A stretch of DNA of 64,000 nt. Origin: Escherichia coli. GTDB taxonomy: Bacteria; Pseudomonadota; Gammaproteobacteria; Enterobacterales; Enterobacteriaceae. The stretch lies in NCBI RefSeq assembly GCF_003018235.1, contig NZ_CP027437.1. One strand, written 5' to 3'. A model generated the notes under the pieces. That model saw nothing but the letters and a program-made list of their open reading frames with translations. It had not been told where the DNA came from and did no database searches. Made by a program: the position numbers and the translations under genes. How positions within the stretch are numbered: position 1 is the first letter of the stretch; each line of letters begins with the position of its first letter. Positions 6,665 through 25,726 of the stretch are shown piece by piece.

Positions 6665-7402
6665 ATGTGGAAAACACTGCATCAACTGGCGATCCCACCA
6701 CGGCTGTATCAAATCTGTGGCTGGTTTATACCGTGGCTGGCAATTGCCAGTGTGGTCGTGCTTACCGTCGGCTGGATCTGGGGATTCGGCTTTGCTCCGG
6801 CTGATTATCAACAGGGAAATAGCTATCGCATTATCTACCTGCATGTGCCTGCGGCGATCTGGTCGATGGGCATTTATGCATCAATGGCGGTGGCGGCGTT
6901 TATTGGCCTTGTCTGGCAGATGAAAATGGCCAACCTGGCGGTGGCGGCGATGGCCCCCATTGGTGCCGTGTTTACCTTTATTGCCCTGGTTACCGGCTCT
7001 GCATGGGGAAAACCGATGTGGGGCACCTGGTGGGTATGGGATGCACGTCTGACTTCTGAACTGGTGCTGCTGTTTTTGTATGTGGGTGTGATTGCCCTGT
7101 GGCACGCCTTCGACGACCGCCGTCTGGCGGGCCGTGCGGCAGGTATCCTGGTGCTGATTGGCGTGGTGAATCTGCCGATTATTCATTACTCCGTGGAGTG
7201 GTGGAACACCCTGCATCAGGGATCAACGCGGATGCAGCAAAGTATCGATCCGGCGATGCGTTCGCCGCTGCGCTGGTCGATTTTTGGCTTCCTGCTGCTG
7301 TCTGCCACGCTGACGCTGATGCGGATGCGTAATTTGATTTTGCTGATGGAAAAACGCCGTCCGTGGGTGAGTGAACTGATACTGAAAAGAGGCCGTAAAT
7401 GA
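6665..7402 (+). CDS. ccmC: Heme exporter protein CcmC (245 aa)
   Basis: Start moved to MWKTLHQLAIPP; WGxxWxWD tryptophan-rich motif (WGTWWVWDARL). Confidence 0.9.
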   Translation: MWKTLHQLAIPPRLYQICGWFIPWLAIASVVVLTVGWIWGFGFAPADYQQGNSYRIIYLHVPAAIWSMGIYASMAVAAFIGLVWQMKMANLAVAAMAPIGAVFTFIALVTGSAWGKPMWGTWWVWDARLTSELVLLFLYVGVIALWHAFDDRRLAGRAAGILVLIGVVNLPIIHYSVEWWNTLHQGSTRMQQSIDPAMRSPLRWSIFGFLLLSATLTLMRMRNLILLMEKRRPWVSELILKRGRK

Positions 7403-7608
7403 CCCCTGCATTTGCTTCCTGGAATGAATTTTTCGCAATGGGCGGTTACGCCTTTTTTGTCTGGCTGGCGGTAGCGATGACCGTTATTCCGCTGGTGATT
7501 TTAGTCGTGCACTCGGTGATGCAGCATCGCGCAATTCTGCGTGGCGTGGCGCAACAGCGGGCGCGTGAGGCGCGTTTACGTGCTGCGCAACAGCAGGAGG
7601 CTGCATGA
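7399..7608 (+). CDS. ccmD: Small membrane protein CcmD (69 aa)
   Basis: Position and size between ccmC and ccmE, single TM helix, overlapping stop/start codons. Confidence 0.9.
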
Positions 7609-8084: not shown

Positions 8085-10024
8085 TGCCAGAAATTGGTAA
8101 CGGGCTGCTGTGCCTGGCGTTAGGGATTGCGCTGCTGCTGTCCGTGTATCCGCTATGGGGCGTGGCGCGCGGAGATGCGCGCATGATGGCGTCTTCCCGC
8201 TTGTTTGCCTGGCTGCTGTTTATGTCTGTAGCTGGCGCATTTCTGGTGCTGGTCAATGCTTTCGTGGTCAACGACTTTACCGTCACCTATGTTGCCAGCA
8301 ACTCCAATACCCAGCTTCCGGTGTGGTATCGCGTGGCGGCTACCTGGGGCGCGCATGAAGGTTCGCTTCTGCTGTGGGTGCTGCTGATGAGCGGCTGGAC
8401 CTTTGCGGTGGCGATTTTTAGTCAGCGTATTCCGCTGGATATTGTGGCCCGCGTACTGGCGATAATGGGGATGGTCAGTGTCGGCTTTTTGCTGTTCATT
8501 CTATTTACCTCTAACCCATTCTCACGCACGCTTCCGAATTTCCCGATTGAAGGGCGCGATCTTAACCCGCTGTTGCAGGATCCGGGGCTGATCTTCCATC
8601 CGCCTCTGCTCTATATGGGGTACGTCGGTTTCTCGGTGGCGTTTGCTTTCGCCATTGCTTCTTTGTTGAGTGGGCGTCTGGACAGCACTTATGCGCGTTT
8701 TACTCGTCCGTGGACGCTGGCAGCGTGGATTTTCCTGACGCTCGGCATTGTGCTTGGTTCCGCATGGGCCTATTACGAACTCGGCTGGGGTGGCTGGTGG
8801 TTCTGGGATCCGGTAGAAAACGCCTCGTTTATGCCGTGGCTGGTGGGGACTGCGCTGATGCACTCACTGGCGGTCACTGAACAACGCGCCAGCTTCAAAG
8901 CGTGGACATTACTGCTGGCAATCAGTGCCTTCTCGTTGTGTCTGCTGGGGACTTTCCTGGTGCGTTCCGGCGTGCTGGTATCGGTACACGCGTTTGCCTC
9001 TGATCCGGCACGCGGTATGTTTATCCTCGCCTTTATGGTGCTGGTGATTGGCGGTTCGCTGCTGCTGTTTGCCGCGCGTGGACACAAAGTTCGTTCACGC
9101 GTAAACAATGCGCTGTGGTCGCGGGAATCTCTGCTGTTAGCGAACAACGTTTTGCTGGTCGCCGCGATGCTGGTGGTGTTGCTGGGGACGCTGCTGCCGC
9201 TGGTGCACAAGCAACTGGGACTGGGCAGTATTTCGATTGGCGAACCGTTCTTCAACACCATGTTTACCTGGCTGATGGTGCCGTTTGCGCTACTGCTGGG
9301 TGTCGGTCCTCTGGTGCGCTGGGGGCGCGATCGCCCACGTAAAATCCGCAATTTATTGATTATCGCCTTCATCTCAACGCTGGTGCTGTCGCTGCTGTTG
9401 CCGTGGCTGTTCGAAAGCAAAGTTGTGGCGATGACGGTGCTCGGCCTGGCAATGGCCTGCTGGATTGCGGTACTGGCAATTGCGGAAGCTGCGCTGCGTA
9501 TTTCACGCGGCACGAAAACCACCTTCAGTTATTGGGGGATGGTGGCGGCTCACCTGGGGCTGGCAGTGACAATTGTTGGTATTGCCTTTAGCCAGAACTA
9601 TAGCGTTGAGCGTGATGTGCGCATGAAGTCCGGCGATAGTGTCGATATTCATGAATATCGCTTCACCTTCCGTGATGTCAAAGAGGTGACTGGCCCGAAC
9701 TGGCGTGGCGGTGTGGCGACTATCGGCGTAACGCGCGATGGCAAGCCGGAAACGGTGCTGTATGCGGAAAAACGTTATTACAACACTGCCGGGTCGATGA
9801 TGACCGAAGCGGCGATTGACGGCGGCATCACGCGTGACCTGTACGCCGCGCTCGGTGAAGAGCTGGAAAACGGCGCGTGGGCTGTGCGTCTTTACTACAA
9901 ACCATTTGTTCGCTGGATTTGGGCGGGCGGGCTGATGATGGCGTTGGGCGGACTGCTGTGTCTGTTTGATCCTCGCTATCGTAAGCGCGTGACCCCGCAG
10001 AAAACTGCGCCGGAGGCTGTATGA
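8081..10024 (+). CDS. ccmF: Cytochrome c-type biogenesis protein CcmF (647 aa)
   Basis: Large polytopic membrane protein with WWFWDPVEN tryptophan-rich motif. Confidence 0.95.
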
Positions 10025-20431: not shown

Positions 20432-21828
20432 AGTGGGTGCACATCATCGCCATCAATAGCGATTACGCCGTCACCTTCCAGCTTGTACAGCCAGCGCCGG
20501 AAATTTTTCATCTCATACCCCAGCTTTTTCATATCGTCGCGGAGAAGGGCGATAGTGCACGCCTCCCCGTGTGCTGTCCTCGTTCTGATGCACTGCCATA
20601 GCGCGGCGTGATTCTCCGTCTTGTTTCCGGCCTCCTCGATGCGCTCCAGTTCAACGGGTGGGCGCGGTTTATCCACAACCACCAGCGACGTGATTAACTC
20701 CCCGTCAGCGTCGGTAAAAAGCTCCACCACACGTAAATCGTATGCGGCCTCTTTCAGTTCCTCCGCGTCCTTCATTTTGGTGCAGGAGATAACCAGGGCT
20801 TCACAGTCCGCACCTTCACGGCGAATACGGTATTCAGCGTCCAGAGATGCACGAAATGCACTGGAACCACGCGCCCCTTTCGTCTCATCCTTGCCGGAAT
20901 GGTGAACCACCAGCACCGTGGCCCCTGTGCGTCGTTTCAGTTCGTCACATCCACGGATAAACGCCCCCATGTCACGGGAATCATTTTCATCATTGCCGCC
21001 AAAGCAACGCGCCAGCGTATCCAGAATAATCATGCGTACAGGTTTACCCGTTTCCCGCTCCACCTGGCTGGCTGCGATAACCATTTCATCAACATCAAGC
21101 GGGGCCGCCGGAAAAATGGGACGGTTTACCAGATACAGATTTTTCACCTGCTCACCGTGCACAACCTCCCAGGCTTTTACACGACGTGGAACGCCGATAC
21201 CGCCTTCACCAACCACATAGAGAACCGCACCATGTGCAACCCTGCGGCCTCCCCAGTAGCGACCTGTGGAAACGTGACACGCCCACGATCCGGCAAGGAA
21301 TGATTTATAGGAACCGCTCGCCCCGTATATGCTGCATAGCGATACCGCCGGAATAATTCCCTTAACCACGTAATCAAGTTGCGTGTCGTATCCGGCAGAA
21401 CCAATGCTCATCGGTAGTTTGGTTTTCCGCTGGTGGCTTTTTTCTTCCTCCTGCGCTTTACCGCGCTCCCGTTCCAGATATTCGCGCCAGTTCTCCCGCT
21501 TCTGGCTGTGCATCCCATCTGGGTAATAATTCGCATCCCGTACACCTGCTGCCGCCAGCTTTTGCGCTATGGCATTAATGCTCGATGGCTTGATATGGCC
21601 TGCCCTGTACAGACGGACGCAATAGCGGCCCTCGTCGATGATTCTCAGGTCTGGCAGTTCAGCCAGTTGATCATCAGCCAGCACAACGGGAGGCACATTA
21701 TCGCCAGCAAGTCGCCCGTCCTGCTCCTGCCACTGCTTCGCGTGTGCCCAGGCATCACTACCCGCAAAAATAATGACTTCTGTCATTTTGTCGTAAGGCT
21801 GTTTTCTTAAGTTCGGTGCGCTCTTCAT
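20428..21828 (-). CDS. Replication initiator/helicase, RepA-like RecA-fold ATPase (466 aa)
   Basis: Walker A GASGSYKS, Walker B MIILD, VLVVHHSGKDETKG motif typical of RepA/AAA_25 helicases; start overlaps upstream ORF stop. Confidence 0.7.
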   Translation of the reverse strand: MKSAPNLRKQPYDKMTEVIIFAGSDAWAHAKQWQEQDGRLAGDNVPPVVLADDQLAELPDLRIIDEGRYCVRLYRAGHIKPSSINAIAQKLAAAGVRDANYYPDGMHSQKRENWREYLERERGKAQEEEKSHQRKTKLPMSIGSAGYDTQLDYVVKGIIPAVSLCSIYGASGSYKSFLAGSWACHVSTGRYWGGRRVAHGAVLYVVGEGGIGVPRRVKAWEVVHGEQVKNLYLVNRPIFPAAPLDVDEMVIAASQVERETGKPVRMIILDTLARCFGGNDENDSRDMGAFIRGCDELKRRTGATVLVVHHSGKDETKGARGSSAFRASLDAEYRIRREGADCEALVISCTKMKDAEELKEAAYDLRVVELFTDADGELITSLVVVDKPRPPVELERIEEAGNKTENHAALWQCIRTRTAHGEACTIALLRDDMKKLGYEMKNFRRWLYKLEGDGVIAIDGDDVHPL

Positions 21829-22137: not shown

Positions 22138-22419
22138 TTATTCGTCGTTCTGAATAAAACGTTGTTCTCTTATTTCAGAAAGTATCCTGTAAACATTCTT
22201 ATCACTTACCACTTGATGATAATCATCATCCTCAATAAAACACATCAGCGCCTTATTACGGATATATATTTCTCTGGAAAGAAACTGTATCGCCGCGACT
22301 GCCCTTTCTTCTGTAATTCCGTTCATTGACTCACGTTCAATAATAATATTAAGTGCGGCGGATGCGTCTTCCAGTTCAATAAGGTAAGCAGCGAGGTTAT
22401 TTTTTATTCCATTAGACAT
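22138..22419 (-). CDS. Hypothetical acidic protein (93 aa)
   Basis: Operon position between Icd-like ORF and 98-aa ORF; family not recognised. Confidence 0.45.
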   Translation of the reverse strand: MSNGIKNNLAAYLIELEDASAALNIIIERESMNGITEERAVAAIQFLSREIYIRNKALMCFIEDDDYHQVVSDKNVYRILSEIREQRFIQNDE

Positions 22420-22615
22420 GGCTCACCCCCTGACAGATTTTTGCAGCGAATACAGCAACACAACCGGACGGGCAAAGGTTACGCGCTTCGCGTTCCGTCC
22501 AGGCGGTTACGTGGATGATTTGATGGTCTGACGCGCCAAAGGCAATAAAGCGCCAGGTGAATTTATTCAGGTTGTGCGAGTCCCGCCCTTGCGGGTGTGT
22601 GATATGATTTAACAT
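22412..22615 (-). CDS. Small protein (67 aa), possibly Icd-like (host cell division inhibitor family of P4-like elements)
   Basis: Only the C-terminal 67 codons of the 353-aa track ORF look coding; MLNHITHPQGRDSHNLNKFTWRFIAFGASDHQIIHVTAWTEREARNLCP; motif resemblance recalled, not searched. Confidence 0.45.
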   Translation of the reverse strand: MLNHITHPQGRDSHNLNKFTWRFIAFGASDHQIIHVTAWTEREARNLCPSGCVAVFAAKICQGVSHV

Positions 22616-22708
22616 AGCTACCTCGATACTATTGCTATCGTTGGTGGTTAGAAGCCTGTGGGTGTTAGCGGCACCTACGGGCTTCGCAGTTTCTGAACCT
22701 TGAACACT

Positions 22709-22794
22709 CAAGGTGTAAGACACAACATAAAACAACAGTGTCTTACACGTCAACCCTTTAAAATAGTTTTTTTTCGTGTATATTGTCTTACACC
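22709..22794. promoter_or_regulatory. Operator-like repeats: palindrome GGTGTAAGACAC / GTGTCTTACACG plus a third copy TGTCTTACACC overlapping a TATATT -10 element
   Basis: Three copies of an 11-12 bp motif in a divergent intergenic region directly upstream of a small plus-strand ORF. Confidence 0.6.
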
Positions 22795-22814
22795 AAAAAC
22801 ATGAGGGGTTAGAC

Positions 22815-23000
22815 ATGGCAACAGGTCCAAAGAATGCAAAATCACAATCTGTAACTGCACGTATTGCCCATGAAATTATTGAAGGCATGGAAAACGTGAA
22901 AGAAGATGGCGAAAGTACAGGGCAGTTTATAAGCGCAGCCATGCGTGGCGAGATCAAACGCCGCCAACGGAAAAAAACCAAAGAATCAGATAAGGAATAA
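22815..23000 (+). CDS. Small basic protein (61 aa), possible ribbon-helix-helix-type regulator
   Basis: Start moved to MATGPKN with GAGGGG RBS; only plus-strand gene in the island. Confidence 0.45.
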   Translation: MATGPKNAKSQSVTARIAHEIIEGMENVKEDGESTGQFISAAMRGEIKRRQRKKTKESDKE

Positions 23001-23003
23001 CTT

Positions 23004-23147
23004 ATGCAGCAAGTACTATACTGGCTTGGCTCTTTGTTTTTATTTGCTTTCCTCCTGGGAAATTGCATCAGCAATGAACACGTCAGTAATGAGCGTGTAT
23101 GCAGGAGTGATGAAAAAAAGATTCCACGCCTCATATACAATGATTGA
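23004..23147 (+). CDS. Small hydrophobic peptide (47 aa), predicted single membrane helix
   Basis: Below the 60-aa track cutoff; ATG 8 nt after AAGGA RBS that overlaps the upstream ORF stop; MQQVLYWLGSLFLFAFLLGNCISNEHVSNERVCRSDEKKIPRLIYND. Confidence 0.35.
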   Translation: MQQVLYWLGSLFLFAFLLGNCISNEHVSNERVCRSDEKKIPRLIYND

Positions 23148-23292
23148 TTAGCTCGTGCAGCACTAAAGCAACGCAAGGCCAAAGAGCAGGAATAGCCCAC
23201 CAGCAAGCCAGCGCACTGATCACATTGCCCACCAGCCGCAAATGTGGCATTGTTGGCTATGCTCATGCGTTGGGGATAACGTGTAGCTTGTG

Positions 23293-23325
23293 TCGAGGGG
23301 CCACCGTAGCGGGTGGCCTTTGTTT
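23293..23325 (+). terminator. Plus-strand intrinsic terminator downstream of the two-gene cassette
   Basis: Hairpin GGCCACCGTAGCGGGTGGCC followed by TTTGTTTT. Confidence 0.55.
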
Positions 23326-23420
23326 TGCCTGTTATCCGGCAATTGTGGCGCTTCGCCACACGGTTGATATAATTCCCCTGCACTGATCCATTTTTTTCGC
23401 AGCAGGTTAATTGTTCGCAA

Positions 23421-23449
23421 GGGCGCTCCGGCAACGGGGCGCTTTTTGT
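23421..23449 (+). terminator. Second plus-strand intrinsic terminator (possible end of a short non-coding transcript)
   Basis: Hairpin GCGCTCCGG-caac-GGGGCGC followed by T5; a TATAAT-like element lies at about 23365. Confidence 0.4.
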
Positions 23450-23477
23450 TATGTTCATCGCGTTACGCCTCACACCA

Positions 23478-23684
23478 TTACGCAGCCGTTCCGCGCGCTT
23501 CTTCCTCGCGCTCTTTCAGCCAGGCCAGCACTTCATCTTCATACCAGCCAACACGACGCAGACCGATTTTGAAGCCTTTCGGGAATTTTCCGGCGTTGAT
23601 CATGTCCTGTAGCGAACTGTCCGCCTTGATGCGAAGAATATTTTTTACTTCCTGACGGGTGAGTATTTTTCTGATTACTTCCAT
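23478..23684 (-). CDS. alpA: AlpA-family phage transcriptional regulator / excisionase-like (68 aa)
   Basis: LTRQEVKNILRIKADSSLQDMINAGKFPKGFKIGLRRVGWYEDEVLAWL is typical of AlpA/Vis-like HTH proteins. Confidence 0.8.
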   Translation of the reverse strand: MEVIRKILTRQEVKNILRIKADSSLQDMINAGKFPKGFKIGLRRVGWYEDEVLAWLKEREEEARGTAA

Positions 23685-23851
23685 CGTGTTTTACCTCATT
23701 AATCCGGCGTGTTCCGGTGATAAATACGGTAAAACAGGGAAGGGCGGGAAAAACAGTACCTACCGTTTTAAAACGGTACCCACTGTTTTTTATCTCGTTG
23801 ATTGTGCTTCTTTTTGCAAAAAATAGCGACCGCAAGGGGCCGCTATTGTGA

Positions 23852-24085
23852 TTACCGTCTCCACTTCTTAGGTCGCCCACCGCATTTAAGGCTGGTGGGC
23901 CTCAGCACCTTGTCGATGCTTTCAGCCAGATTTTTCGATACGCCACGTGAGCGCAAAAAACTGACTACCTCGTGTTTTGTGGGGGCTGTTGATTTGTCTT
24001 CCGGATCGTACGTTGACCAGAATTCACGGCTTACCAGTACAGCCAGTTCAAGCCCGTCACAAGTGCCATTGATGTTTGTTTGCAT
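23852..24085 (-). CDS. Hypothetical protein (77 aa) between integrase and alpA
   Basis: Basic C-terminus GGRPKKWRR; followed on minus strand by hairpin plus T-run. Confidence 0.4.
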   Translation of the reverse strand: MQTNINGTCDGLELAVLVSREFWSTYDPEDKSTAPTKHEVVSFLRSRGVSKNLAESIDKVLRPTSLKCGGRPKKWRR

Positions 24086-24189: not shown

Positions 24190-25431
24190 TTATACCGCAC
24201 GGATACCCCTTTTACCACCAGCAAGGGTAACGCCCGTTGCCGCTGCCTCAACAAATTCCCCCCACCAGCGCATCAGCACAATGCGTTTTTCCAGGTAGTT
24301 ACTGCGGTTGTAGGCTCTCCTTACTTCGTTGGTGTCCACGTGGGCCAGTGCGGCCTCGATTACGTCCGGCTCGAATCCTTCCTCGTTTGCTGCTGTGCTG
24401 AATATGGCGCGTAATCCATGAGACACCAGCACGCCAGCGAACCCCATGCGCCGTAATGCTGCGTTGGCGGTCTGGCTGTTCATCGGCTGGCGTGGGTCTT
24501 TCAGGCTCGGGAAAACATGCTCGCGGTGGTGGCTGATTGGTTTCATGGCCTCCAGCACTGCCATAGCCTGACCGCAAAGCGGGATAACGTGATCACGTCG
24601 CATCTTCATACGTCCGGCTGGTATCGTCCATTGTTGCTCGTCCAGGTCGATTTCTTCCCAGCGTGCTGACGATGCCTCAACAGGACGGGTTACGGTAAGT
24701 AGCTGCCACTCAATCAGTAGTCTTGTCTGCCGTTCTGTTGCCGATACGGATAAAGCCCGCATAAGCTCCGGTAGCTGCTCGGGGCGGATTGTTGGCATAT
24801 GTTTTTTTACTGGGGTGGGGAAGGCCTTGCGCACGTTTGTAGCCGGATTGGTATCAATCATCCCGCTGTTGGCGGCGTAATCCATAACTTCATTGATGCG
24901 CTGTAAAACCCGCTTGAGCGTTTCCAGGTTGCCGCGTTCCTTGATGGGGGTGAGTATCTCCACGAACCTGCGGGCGGTGAGGGTGTCTACTGGCGTGTCA
25001 CCGATGAACGGGAATACATATTTCTCCAGCGATCTCCATATGTCTTTAATTGTGTTGGGTGCAAGATTCTGGCTGATTTTCACCTGGTACCATGCCGCTG
25101 CTACATTTTCGAACGTGTTGCCCTGTCTCCGTTCCTCTGCTTCGCGTTTTCGTCGCTCGTGTTCCTGTGGGTCGGTGCCGGAAGAAATTAACGTCCTGTA
25201 CTCGCTACGGCGTTTTCTGGCATCAGCCAAGGAAACATCATCAAGCGATCCAAAACTCAGCAATATTCTTTTTTTGTCCAATGGGCGGTAGTAGGAAAAT
25301 CGCCAGAGTTTTGATCCAGACGGTTTGACCAGGAGAAAAAGCCCTCCGCCGTCCTGTAGGGTGTACTCCTTTTCCGCTGGTCTGGCTGCTTTGATCTGCA
25401 CTGTGGTTAATGGGGTTGTTTTTCTCGCCAT
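24190..25431 (-). CDS. Tyrosine integrase, P4/CP4-57 IntA-like (about 413 aa)
   Basis: N-terminal arm-binding-type region (KEYTLQDGGGLFLLVKPSGSKLWRFSY), C-terminal catalytic region (HGLRAIFST, ALAHV); adjacent to tRNA 3' end. Confidence 0.9.
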   Translation of the reverse strand: MARKTTPLTTVQIKAARPAEKEYTLQDGGGLFLLVKPSGSKLWRFSYYRPLDKKRILLSFGSLDDVSLADARKRRSEYRTLISSGTDPQEHERRKREAEERRQGNTFENVAAAWYQVKISQNLAPNTIKDIWRSLEKYVFPFIGDTPVDTLTARRFVEILTPIKERGNLETLKRVLQRINEVMDYAANSGMIDTNPATNVRKAFPTPVKKHMPTIRPEQLPELMRALSVSATERQTRLLIEWQLLTVTRPVEASSARWEEIDLDEQQWTIPAGRMKMRRDHVIPLCGQAMAVLEAMKPISHHREHVFPSLKDPRQPMNSQTANAALRRMGFAGVLVSHGLRAIFSTAANEEGFEPDVIEAALAHVDTNEVRRAYNRSNYLEKRIVLMRWWGEFVEAAATGVTLAGGKRGIRAV

Positions 25432-25462
25432 ATGTCTATGATTCCACACGAAAAAATGGGGT

Positions 25463-25649: not shown

Positions 25650-25726
25650 TGGTCGGCACGAGAGGATTTGAACCTCCGACCCCCGACACCCCATGACGGT
25701 GCGCTACCAGGCTGCGCTACGTGCCG
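25650..25726 (-). tRNA. proL: tRNA-Pro (77 nt, ends CCA)
   Basis: Reverse complement reads CGGCACGTAGCGCAGCCTGGTAGCGCACCGTCATGGGGTGTCGGGGGTCGGAGGTTCAAATCCTCTCGTGCCGACCA. Confidence 0.95.

What the first reader, a model, noticed from the sequence alone, without database searches (positions are those of the whole stretch)
22709..23147. Plus-strand two-gene cassette (61-aa basic protein + 47-aa membrane peptide) behind operator-like palindromes
This is the only plus-strand coding unit in the island, lying between alpA and the replication operon. A promoter-like TATATT is flanked by three copies of GTGTCTTACAC (one as the inverted partner GGTGTAAGACAC), the pattern of an autoregulated switch. The first ORF (22815-23000) is basic with a possible ribbon-helix-helix fold. 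The second (23004-23147) is missed by the 60-aa ORF track, has an AAGGA RBS overlapping the first ORF's stop, and encodes a single hydrophobic helix with a charged tail. A regulator plus small membrane peptide could be a toxin/exclusion or abortive-infection type module, in a position where mobile elements often carry variable cargo.
Basis: inference. Interest (0 to 1): 0.75.

Follow-up and report, generated by a model that had tools for sequence, protein, structure and literature searches.

The report
Phage-satellite repressor switch, antisense-embedded
The small plus-strand cassette is most likely the repressor-and-operator switch of a phage satellite (PICI) of the kind found in the model element EcCICFT073. 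Its repressor gene is written backwards inside a long reading frame that the satellite keeps open, and the 47-aa membrane peptide is a rare add-on of unknown function.

Summary
They are the only such matches in the 64 kb window.

ORF1 (61 aa) belongs to the uncharacterised YlcI/YnfO family, and its model has a ribbon-helix-helix fold. In 59 related satellite loci the three sites keep fixed positions over two divergent promoters. Their 5-bp core changes in step with beta-strand residues 12 and 14 of YlcI, but not with AlpA or the Icd-like protein. I read this as a repressor with its operators, shutting off the Icd-like/replication operon and its own gene. EcCICFT073, the model Gram-negative PICI, carries the same module, and the founding paper called a global repressor for these elements "unclear".

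Unexpectedly, the whole cassette lies antisense to a stop-free minus-strand frame. This frame starts next to the alpA stop and ends in the Icd/Kil-like domain, as in the nested eta/kil genes of phage P4. It is open in 53 of 59 loci, against 0.3% of shuffles.

ORF2 (47 aa) is probably a real small membrane protein but is rare accessory cargo, present in 8 of 5426 E. coli genomes. Nothing supports a toxin or abortive-infection role.

The parts
22712..22723 (.). Operator O1 (GGTGTAAGACAC). It starts right after the -10 of the leftward promoter and covers its likely start site.
   Evidence: the general form is (G)GTG-N5-CAC(C)
22738..22748 (.). Operator O2 (GTGTCTTACAC). It fills the spacer of the leftward promoter and abuts its -35. 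It sits at -77 from the ylcI ATG in nearly all 59 loci.
22783..22794 (.). Operator O3 (TTGTCTTACACC). It overlaps the last base of the ylcI -10 and the likely start site.
22724..22753 (-). Leftward promoter-like site (TTGACG, 18 nt, TATGTT) for the Icd-like/replication operon. The -35 (NTCAA on the + strand) is conserved at a fixed offset across loci.
   Evidence: a consensus match only, not shown to be active
22757..22784 (+). ylcI promoter-like site (TTTAAA, 16 nt, TATATT). The -10 is conserved as TATACT or TATATT across loci.
22815..23000 (+). ORF1: a YlcI/YnfO-family ribbon-helix-helix protein of 61 aa, the proposed repressor.
23004..23147 (+). ORF2: a 47-aa small protein with an N-terminal hydrophobic helix, an invariant Cys21 and a polar tail. 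It is accessory cargo.
23148..23195 (+). Relic of the 3' end of a 59-aa-type ylcI (LARAALKQRKAKEQE*), in frame with ylcI. It marks where the ORF2 block was recombined in.
   Evidence: reading
23296..23321 (+). Intrinsic-terminator-like hairpin followed by a T run. It would end the + strand transcript.
23419..23446 (+). Second + strand terminator-like hairpin, just before the 3' end of alpA.
22412..23473 (-). Long stop-free minus-strand ORF of 353 codons from GTG 23473 (or ATG 23458 with a GAGG ribosome-binding site). It runs antisense to ORF2, ylcI and the operator region, and resembles P4 eta.
22412..22621 (-). Icd/Kil-like gene (69 aa). It is the in-frame C-terminal part of the long ORF and the first gene after the leftward promoter.
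   Evidence: NF033153 60.6 bits; P4 eta/kil hits the same model
22645..22686 (-). Conserved hairpin in the leader between the leftward promoter and the Icd-like ATG.
   Evidence: compensatory changes in 8 of 11 predicted pairs
23478..23684 (-). alpA-like gene. Its stop codon is 4 nt before the first start codon of the long ORF.

Best explanation
The island at tRNA-Pro (proL) is a phage satellite of the Gram-negative PICI type. ORF1 is a dimeric ribbon-helix-helix DNA-binding protein of the YlcI/YnfO family. It most likely binds three 11-13 bp sites of the form GGTG-N5-CACC. Two sites (O1, O2) lie on the core of the leftward promoter that drives the Icd/Kil-like gene and the RepA replication operon. 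One site (O3) lies on the -10 and start site of its own promoter. On this reading ORF1 keeps the satellite's early operon shut and limits its own synthesis. Its variable beta-strand residues 12 and 14 would set an immunity specificity that differs between satellites.

The + strand transcript ends at two one-way terminators before alpA. The whole cassette lies antisense to a long open frame that starts at the alpA stop and ends as the Icd-like protein, like the nested eta/kil genes of P4.

The following steps are inferred. When a helper phage turns on alpA, transcription and coupled translation run leftward through this frame. That would protect the transcript from premature termination, collide with ylcI transcription, and express the replication genes whatever YlcI is doing. 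ORF2 would be a small membrane protein picked up by recombination in the lysine/arginine-rich tail of ylcI. It would be co-expressed with the repressor in the resting state. Its function is unknown.
For: Family: NF041551 scores 65 bits.
Sites: they are the only three matches in the window. They sit at fixed offsets of about -102, -77 and -31 in 59 loci from many Enterobacterales genera, while the N5 core differs in at least 12 classes that track residues 12 and 14. Of pairs of loci with the same residues, 122 of 184 have close operators, against 38 of 1301 otherwise; Mantel r is 0.51, reached by 0 of 2000 permutations.
Not AlpA: the window and L006 share the same AlpA prefix, as do L031, L039 and L046, yet each set has different operators.
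Not Icd-like: its N-terminus is nearly the same across five operator classes.
Promoter overlap.
Antisense frame: it is stop-free over operators plus ylcI in 53 of 59 loci, against 35 of 11800 shuffles. The other two minus frames carry 7.4 and 10.9 stops on average. Its start lies within 17 nt of the upstream gene's stop in about 29 loci. Its C-terminus and that of P4 eta both hit NF033153 and phrog_1743.
EcCICFT073 has the same module and open frame.
Published work: AlpA activates itself and suffices to induce replication, and a global repressor is 'unclear' (PMC6092414). The P4 eta/kil logic is summarised in PMC10111431.
Against: No binding, transcription or translation data exist for any part. 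The promoters are consensus matches no more frequent than in shuffles. The covariation is not perfect: L011 has the QLNA strand but a different core from other QLNA loci, and KTSV and RFDV strands share one core. The loci are related, so the statistics overstate independence. pN/pS barely separates the two overlapping frames for ylcI (0.36 against 0.48), because they share wobble positions. Foldseek found no PDB match, and neither did sequence searches of the PDB. The published description of Gram-negative PICIs as unidirectionally transcribed and controlled by AlpA needs no repressor. The role of translating the long frame is an analogy with P4, partly recalled from memory.
Confidence: 0.6

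Rival explanations
1. ORF1 and ORF2 form a two-gene effector module: an RHH antitoxin or regulator plus a small membrane toxin, exclusion or abortive-infection peptide.
Against: In 38 of 59 loci ylcI has no downstream + ORF. ORF2 is present in 8 of 5426 E. coli genomes, against hundreds with ylcI. In L007 and L011 ORF2 follows a different 42-43 aa ORF rather than ylcI. In L065 it is 27 nt from a 95-aa YlcI. It has no hit in Pfam, NCBIfam, PHROGs or PADLOC. The operators sit on the replication-operon promoter, which a self-contained TA module would not need.
Confidence: 0.12
2. The + strand ORFs are shadow frames of a genuine long minus-strand protein gene (a Bro/Eta-type protein). On this view the repeats are sites for another factor such as AlpA or a helper protein.
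For: The minus frame is kept open in 53 of 59 loci and is coupled to the upstream gene. All + ORFs lie in the one frame that shares wobble positions with it. The EcCICFT073 long ORF keeps a weak anti-repressor-like stretch near its N-terminus. PGAP did not call ORF2.
Against: ORF1 is a curated family with 109 close relatives, a confident RHH model and a conserved promoter. Codon position 2 of the + frame is the most conserved, with 20% of differences. The operator cores follow ORF1 residues and not AlpA. Apart from the last 91 residues, the minus-frame product hits no PHROG or NCBIfam family. Its sequence changes freely.
Confidence: 0.07
3. ORF1 is an autoregulated RHH that controls only its own small operon (ylcI plus cargo), or assists recombination or partition. 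It has no role in holding the satellite quiescent, and AlpA alone decides induction.
For: Published work explains induction with AlpA alone (PMC6092414). O3 on its own promoter is enough for autoregulation.
Against: Two of the three sites are placed on the -35/-10 spacer and start region of the opposite promoter, at fixed offsets in 59 loci. That placement would be unnecessary for autoregulation only.
Confidence: 0.15
4. The repeats are replication iterons or packaging sites rather than operators.
For: Short repeats in satellites often mark origins. P4 has ori repeats near its regulatory region.
Against: There are only three copies. They lie exactly over promoter elements and co-vary with a DNA-binding protein encoded 20 bp away. 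The helicase differs between loci with the same sites: RepA in the window, D5-type primase in others.
Confidence: 0.03

Closest known systems
Phage P4 immunity/early region (vis-eta/kil, promoters PLL and PLE, CI RNA)
   Same: A long ORF follows the alpA/vis homologue and ends in an Icd/Kil-like domain; both hit NF033153 and phrog_1743. An internal promoter lies upstream of the short nested gene. The same gene order then leads into the primase/helicase operon.
   Different: P4 immunity is an RNA (CI with seqA and seqC). Here no C4 or isrK-type RNA was found. Instead a protein gene with its own operators is written antisense inside the long ORF. P4 has no such antisense gene.
SaPI/Gram-positive PICI master repressor Stl (Rpr), divergent from the replication operon
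   Same: A small regulator gene is transcribed divergently from the excision/replication operon, with binding sites in the shared intergenic region. It is a satellite-specific immunity element (PMC6092414).
   Different: There is no sequence or fold relation: Stl proteins are larger HTH proteins. De-repression by a helper protein is known for Stl and untested here. Here AlpA-driven read-through offers a bypass.
Ribbon-helix-helix repressors with repeated sites (P22 Arc/Mnt, plasmid Omega, CopG)
   Same: The strand-helix-helix fold with a G-x-S/T turn is shared. Several short sites overlap the -35/-10 of divergent promoters. Specificity is set by alternate beta-strand residues.
   Different: Sequence identity is only 12-17%. 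The conserved MATGxKNAKSQ arm and the basic RRQRKK tail are particular to this family.
YlcI (DLP12) and YnfO (Qin) of E. coli K-12, DUF3950
   Same: They match the same curated N-terminal model.
   Different: K-12 ylcI lies at the right end of a lambdoid prophage, divergent from the terminase gene nohD and next to cos. It is not between alpA and a replication operon. Its function is also unknown.
Lambda cI-rexAB type arrangement (cargo co-transcribed with the maintenance repressor)
   Same: Accessory ORFs (ORF2, the 57-aa and 75-aa proteins) sit directly downstream of the putative repressor in the same transcript.
   Different: No homology exists. An exclusion or defence function for ORF2 is pure conjecture.

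Membership tests
YlcI/YnfO family (NCBIfam NF041551, DUF3950) | Score above the curated cut-off of the N-terminal model | tested here: met
   65.3 bits against a cut-off of 30, residues 9-50. RefSeq gives the identical protein this name.
Ribbon-helix-helix superfamily | N-terminal strand, helix A, a G-x-S/T turn and helix B | tested here: met
Ribbon-helix-helix superfamily | Dimer that reads DNA through a paired beta-sheet | tested here: inconclusive
   Only indirect: residues 12 and 14 co-vary with the site core. No dimer model or binding assay was possible.
Type II toxin-antitoxin pair (RHH antitoxin plus toxin) | A conserved partnership with a toxin of a recognisable family | tested here: not met
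   ORF2 has no family hit. 38 of 59 loci have no partner ORF.
Type I / Hok-like small membrane toxins | Match to known toxin families, plus an antisense RNA regulator | tested here: not met
   No Pfam hit even at E of 10 or less. No Rfam hit in 22300-23900.
Bacterial lipoprotein (for ORF2) | Lipobox [LVI][ASTVI][GAS]C at the end of the hydrophobic segment | tested here: not met
   The sequences are LGNC, MKYC and LKSC. The -1 and -2 positions do not fit, although the Cys is invariant.
P4-type eta/kil nested-gene region | Long ORF after the alpA/vis homologue whose C-terminus is the Icd/Kil domain | tested here: met
P4-type eta/kil nested-gene region | CI/C4-type immunity RNA with seqA and seqC targets | tested here: not met
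   No Rfam match at the gathering threshold or at E of 1 or less. A different conserved leader hairpin is present.
P4-type eta/kil nested-gene region | Rho-dependent terminator overcome by translation of eta | not testable with these tools
   Needs in vivo transcript analysis.
Gram-negative PICI | int and alpA at a tRNA site, a replication module, PerC and capsid-related genes, size of about 10 kb | tested here: met
   The same module is present in EcCICFT073.
Gram-negative PICI | Induction and packaging by a helper phage | not testable with these tools
   -

The most novel reading that the evidence does not exclude
YlcI/YnfO-type RHH proteins are the missing master repressors and immunity determinants of Enterobacterales PICIs, including the model EcCICFT073. 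They fall into a dozen or more operator specificities. Each repressor gene is encoded antisense inside a translated eta-like frame, so that AlpA-driven transcription and translation through the repressor gene is itself what flips the switch.
Probability: 0.4. Interest if true: 0.8.

Novelty: new variant of a known kind. Interest (0 to 1): 0.66.

Why it matters
PICIs are widespread vehicles of gene transfer and phage interference. For the Gram-negative ones, the founding paper states that a global repressor is 'unclear' and describes transcription as unidirectional (PMC6092414).

A conserved, divergently oriented RHH gene with co-evolving operators on the replication-operon promoter, present in the model element, would be a directly testable candidate for that repressor. 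It would also explain immunity groups among co-resident satellites. The operator/residue table is a small natural recognition code for an RHH family.

Keeping a frame open for 0.6-1.8 kb antisense to one to four real genes is an unusual case of double coding. Its constraint appears to be 'stay open', not 'keep the protein', and it links PICI control to the P4 eta/kil logic.

The slot after ylcI is a small cargo site, and anything inserted there must be compatible with the antisense frame.

Tried and rejected
- **Rfam:** neither the whole window at the gathering threshold nor 22300-23900 at E of 1 or less gave a C4, isrK or other RNA family.
- **Pfam for ORF1:** the only hit was a spurious SspO match (E 0.016).
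- **ORF2 family searches:** Pfam, NCBIfam, PHROGs and PADLOC gave nothing.
- **Conserved stretch 23150-23480:** I suspected it was a small RNA. It has no phage match, and folding was no better than shuffles on either strand (z +0.38 and -1.13). I now read it as the 5' part of the long minus frame plus two + strand terminators.
- **Automatic pick of the first leftward ORF:** it wrongly started at the TTG of the -35 box. I used those translations only to compare the Icd-like N-termini.
- **Direct BLASTP of the P4 137-aa 'cI' ORF (the C-terminal part of eta) against the window's long ORF:** no match. The relation shows only through the shared HMMs.
- **Cargo in L057:** its ORFs look like a BrnT/BrnA pair by eye, but NCBIfam gave no hit, so I do not claim it.
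- **Literature:** searches for YlcI, YnfO or DUF3950 function, for RHH proteins in PICIs, and for an EcCICFT073 repressor found nothing relevant. The P4 eta/kil paper (PMC94026) is not held.

Full report
**Setting.** The window is an Escherichia-type chromosome (yejM, tRNA-Pro, yejL, yejK). A satellite of about 10 kb is inserted at the tRNA-Pro gene at 25653-25726. All of its genes lie on the minus strand except the cassette in question. In order they are:
- integrase, 24190-25449
- a 77-aa ORF
- an AlpA-like gene, 23478-23684
- [the + strand cassette]
- an Icd-like gene, 22412-22621
- a 93-aa ORF
- a DUF4222 protein
- a RepA-type helicase, 20428-21828
- an 86-aa ORF
- a second tyrosine recombinase
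- PerC
- a ClpP-protease/capsid fusion

This list rests, and on the RefSeq annotation of a 98% identical island in strain SCU-111. It is the gene plan of a Gram-negative phage-inducible chromosomal island (PICI).

**The observation.** The three copies of GTGTCTTACAC (two exact, one with 10 of 11) are the only matches in 64 kb, and all fall within 82 bp. Shuffles of the window gave a mean of 0.54 matches.

**ORF1.** It scores 65 bits against the curated YlcI/YnfO model, whose cut-off is 30. It also hits two PHROGs of unknown function, and RefSeq gives it the YlcI/YnfO name. No paper in the held library assigns this family a function.
- An alignment of 53 relatives shows an invariant N-terminal arm (MATGxKNAKSQ). 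It also shows a strand with alternating hydrophobic positions, a G-E-S-T turn and a basic tail.
- AlphaFold2 gives a confident model (pLDDT 88) with the strand-helix-helix order.

**The repeats are its operators.** I collected 59 loci in all. These are the window, nine E. coli or metagenome loci and 49 loci from one genome per species across Enterobacterales.
- In nearly all of them one site sits at -77 from the ylcI ATG and is followed by NTCAA, which on the other strand is the -35 TTGA of the leftward promoter.
- A second site starts at about -31, on the last base of a conserved TATACT or TATATT box.
- A third lies at about -100 to -112.
- The sites have the form (G)GTG-N5-CAC(C).
- The flanks are conserved, but the five central bases fall into a dozen or more classes that follow YlcI residues 12 and 14. 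In the list below the two letters are those residues:

| Residues 12, 14 | Site core (N5) |
|---|---|
| S, T | TCTTA |
| M, T | AAATA |
| L, T | AAACA |
| K, E | TCAGC |
| R, D | TCGGA |
| A/S, K | TGGCC or TGGTC |
| K, Q | TGCTC or GAYTC |
| K, S | GCACC |
| Q, N | AATCG |
| Q, V | AATGC |
| Q, S | AACAC |

Pairs of loci with the same two residues have near-identical sites in 122 of 184 cases, against 38 of 1301 for other pairs. Mantel r is 0.51, reached by 0 of 2000 permutations.

The association is not with the neighbouring proteins. The window and L006 share the same AlpA over the 60 residues compared but have different sites, and so do L031, L039 and L046. The Icd-like N-terminus is nearly the same across five site classes. 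Conversely, the window's strand variant and its sites recur together in Superficieibacter, Cedecea and Xenorhabdus.

There are exceptions. L011 does not match the other QLNA loci, and two different strands share TCGGA. Other residues must therefore contribute.

**Placement.** In the window O2 fills the spacer of the leftward promoter-like site (TTGACG, 18 nt, TATGTT). O1 begins right after its -10. O3 overlaps the -10 and start site of the ylcI promoter-like site. This is the geometry of repression of both promoters. It is an inference from position. The promoter scan alone is no better than chance, although the hexamers are conserved across the loci.

**The antisense frame.** The ORF list shows a 353-codon minus-strand ORF at 22412-23473. 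It covers ORF2, ORF1 and the operator region, and ends as the Icd-like protein.
- The same is true elsewhere. Stop-free minus frames of 0.6-1.8 kb cover ylcI in almost all loci.
- Over a fixed 390 nt (operators plus ylcI), 53 of 59 loci have one stop-free minus frame. The other two minus frames carry 7.4 and 10.9 stops on average, and only 35 of 11800 shuffles have any open frame.
- In the AT-rich 190-nt intergenic part, the open frame has no stop in 53 of 59 loci, against 5.4 stops in the other frames.
- In the window the first start codon (GTG 23473) is 4 nt after the alpA stop. An ATG with a GAGG ribosome-binding site follows at 23458.
- In about 29 loci the start lies within 17 nt of the stop of the upstream AlpA-like or Bro/AntA-like gene, and often overlaps it.
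- In P4, a 214-codon ORF (8168-8812) in the position of eta overlaps the end of the alpA homologue ORF88.
- The P4 eta C-terminus, which I recall being the 65-aa Kil, hits the same NF033153 and phrog_1743 models as the C-terminus of the window's frame.
- PMC10111431 summarises the P4 logic: a promoter inside eta, Kil as a truncated Eta, eta coupled to the alpA homologue, and eta translation preventing termination.

The satellite here has that skeleton, but no C4 or CI-type RNA. In its place it has a protein repressor gene written on the opposite strand. All + strand ORFs (ylcI, the 57-aa, 42-aa and 47-aa ORFs) lie in the single frame that shares wobble positions with the minus frame. That arrangement makes it cheap to keep both open. 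The minus-frame amino-acid sequence itself drifts freely.

**EcCICFT073.** The model Gram-negative PICI carries the same module: alpA, a 57-aa gene and ylcI on the opposite strand, then the Icd-like gene. It also has a 429-codon open frame antisense to both small genes. The paper that defined these elements describes them as unidirectionally transcribed. It says a global repressor is 'unclear', and shows that AlpA activates its own promoter and that AlpA over-expression alone induces replication (PMC6092414). Later papers that I could search do not mention this gene.

**ORF2.** Its DNA is found in only 8 of 5426 complete E. coli genomes.
- The frame is intact in six loci of two clades that differ at 20% of bases.
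- A third, distant member (P0112, E 2.9e-5 in a search of 1.8 billion representatives) sits at the same position after a 95-aa YlcI in another satellite. It has the same AAGGAAT-N-ACTTATG start context, the same length, the same hydrophobic segment and the same Cys21, despite very different DNA.
- pN/pS is 0.28-0.34 in the hydrophobic half, against 0.66-0.70 for the opposite frame. The counts are small.

I consider it a real gene (about 0.65). It is a single-pass or signal-anchored small protein with a disulfide-capable tail and no canonical lipobox.

It is cargo, not a partner of ylcI. In 38 of 59 loci ylcI stands alone. Other islands carry unrelated hydrophilic ORFs in the slot. In L007 and L011 ORF2 follows a 42-43 aa ORF whose tail (RRQRKKTKESDKE) matches the ylcI tail. 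In the window, the 48 bases after ORF2 (23148-23195) still encode LARAALKQRKAKEQE*, the end of a 59-aa-type YlcI. The ORF2 block therefore entered by recombination within the repeated lysine/arginine-coding stretch. Its function is unknown. Co-expression with a maintenance repressor is where exclusion genes often sit, but that is only an analogy.

**Verdict.** The finding is real. The effector-module reading is unsupported. The more interesting content is twofold. First, the cassette is a candidate master repressor with a readable operator code in a well-studied satellite family. Second, it is embedded antisense in a P4-like eta/kil frame that selection keeps open. Everything about activity is inferred from sequence comparison.

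Noticed in passing
window 22645-22686 (minus-strand RNA), leader between the leftward promoter and the Icd-like ATG: A conserved hairpin (GAAGCCCGG-CAGTG ... CACTA-CCGGGCTTC) is followed by the conserved sequence TCTAACCACAA. RNAalifold on 23 loci finds compensatory changes in 8 of 11 predicted pairs. It has no Rfam match. It could be a processing, attenuation or immunity element of the leftward transcript.
   Followed up: partly
window 23172-23480: A stretch of about 300 nt downstream of alpA is 95-97% identical among E. coli satellites whose flanking cassettes differ. It holds two + strand terminator-like hairpins and the 5' part of the long minus frame. It has no phage match and no unusual overall fold energy.
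   Followed up: partly
window 18981-19994 (-): A second, XerC/D-like tyrosine recombinase (337 aa) lies inside the island between the helicase and PerC, in addition to the P4-type integrase at 24190-25449. RefSeq calls its counterpart 'phage integrase'. Its role is unknown.
   Followed up: no
window 16170-18065 (-): A 631-aa ORF corresponds to a gene that RefSeq annotates as a ClpP-like prohead protease/major capsid protein fusion in the related island. This suggests the satellite makes or remodels capsids.
   Followed up: no
L002 3450-3623; L063 (EcCICFT073) 7243-7416; also L004, L005, L007, L008, L011: A family of proteins of about 57-67 aa with an invariant core ERFAPCAF(A/V)L(E/D)xFLK(E/K) follows ylcI in several E. 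coli satellites, including the model PICI. It has no family hit, and RefSeq annotates it only as 'hypothetical protein'.
   Followed up: partly
L057 2746-3328 (Superficieibacter sp.): Two + strand ORFs (94 and 74 aa) that look like a BrnT/BrnA toxin-antitoxin pair by eye sit downstream of ylcI. The antisense frame stays open across them (1704 nt). NCBIfam gave no hit, so the identification is unconfirmed.
   Followed up: partly
L064 4252-4446 (E. coli K-12 DLP12): The namesake ylcI lies at the right end of the cryptic lambdoid prophage, divergent from the terminase gene nohD and next to a sequence I recognise from memory as lambda-type cos. This is a different context from the satellite module, so the family has at least two genomic settings.
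   Followed up: partly
L001 (E. coli 06-00048, NZ_CP015229 1163616-1176313): The only complete E. coli genome with the same ylcI-ORF2 block carries it in a different satellite. That satellite has other int/HTH/Bro-N genes and abuts a truncated terminase gene of a prophage, which looks like a helper-embedded PICI. The switch module therefore moves between satellite backbones.
   Followed up: no
L063 6767-7010 (EcCICFT073 long ORF, residues 49-84): The N-terminal part of the long antisense-spanning frame keeps weak similarity to anti-repressor (Ant/Bro) families. This is consistent with the frame being a decayed Bro-type gene.
   Followed up: partly
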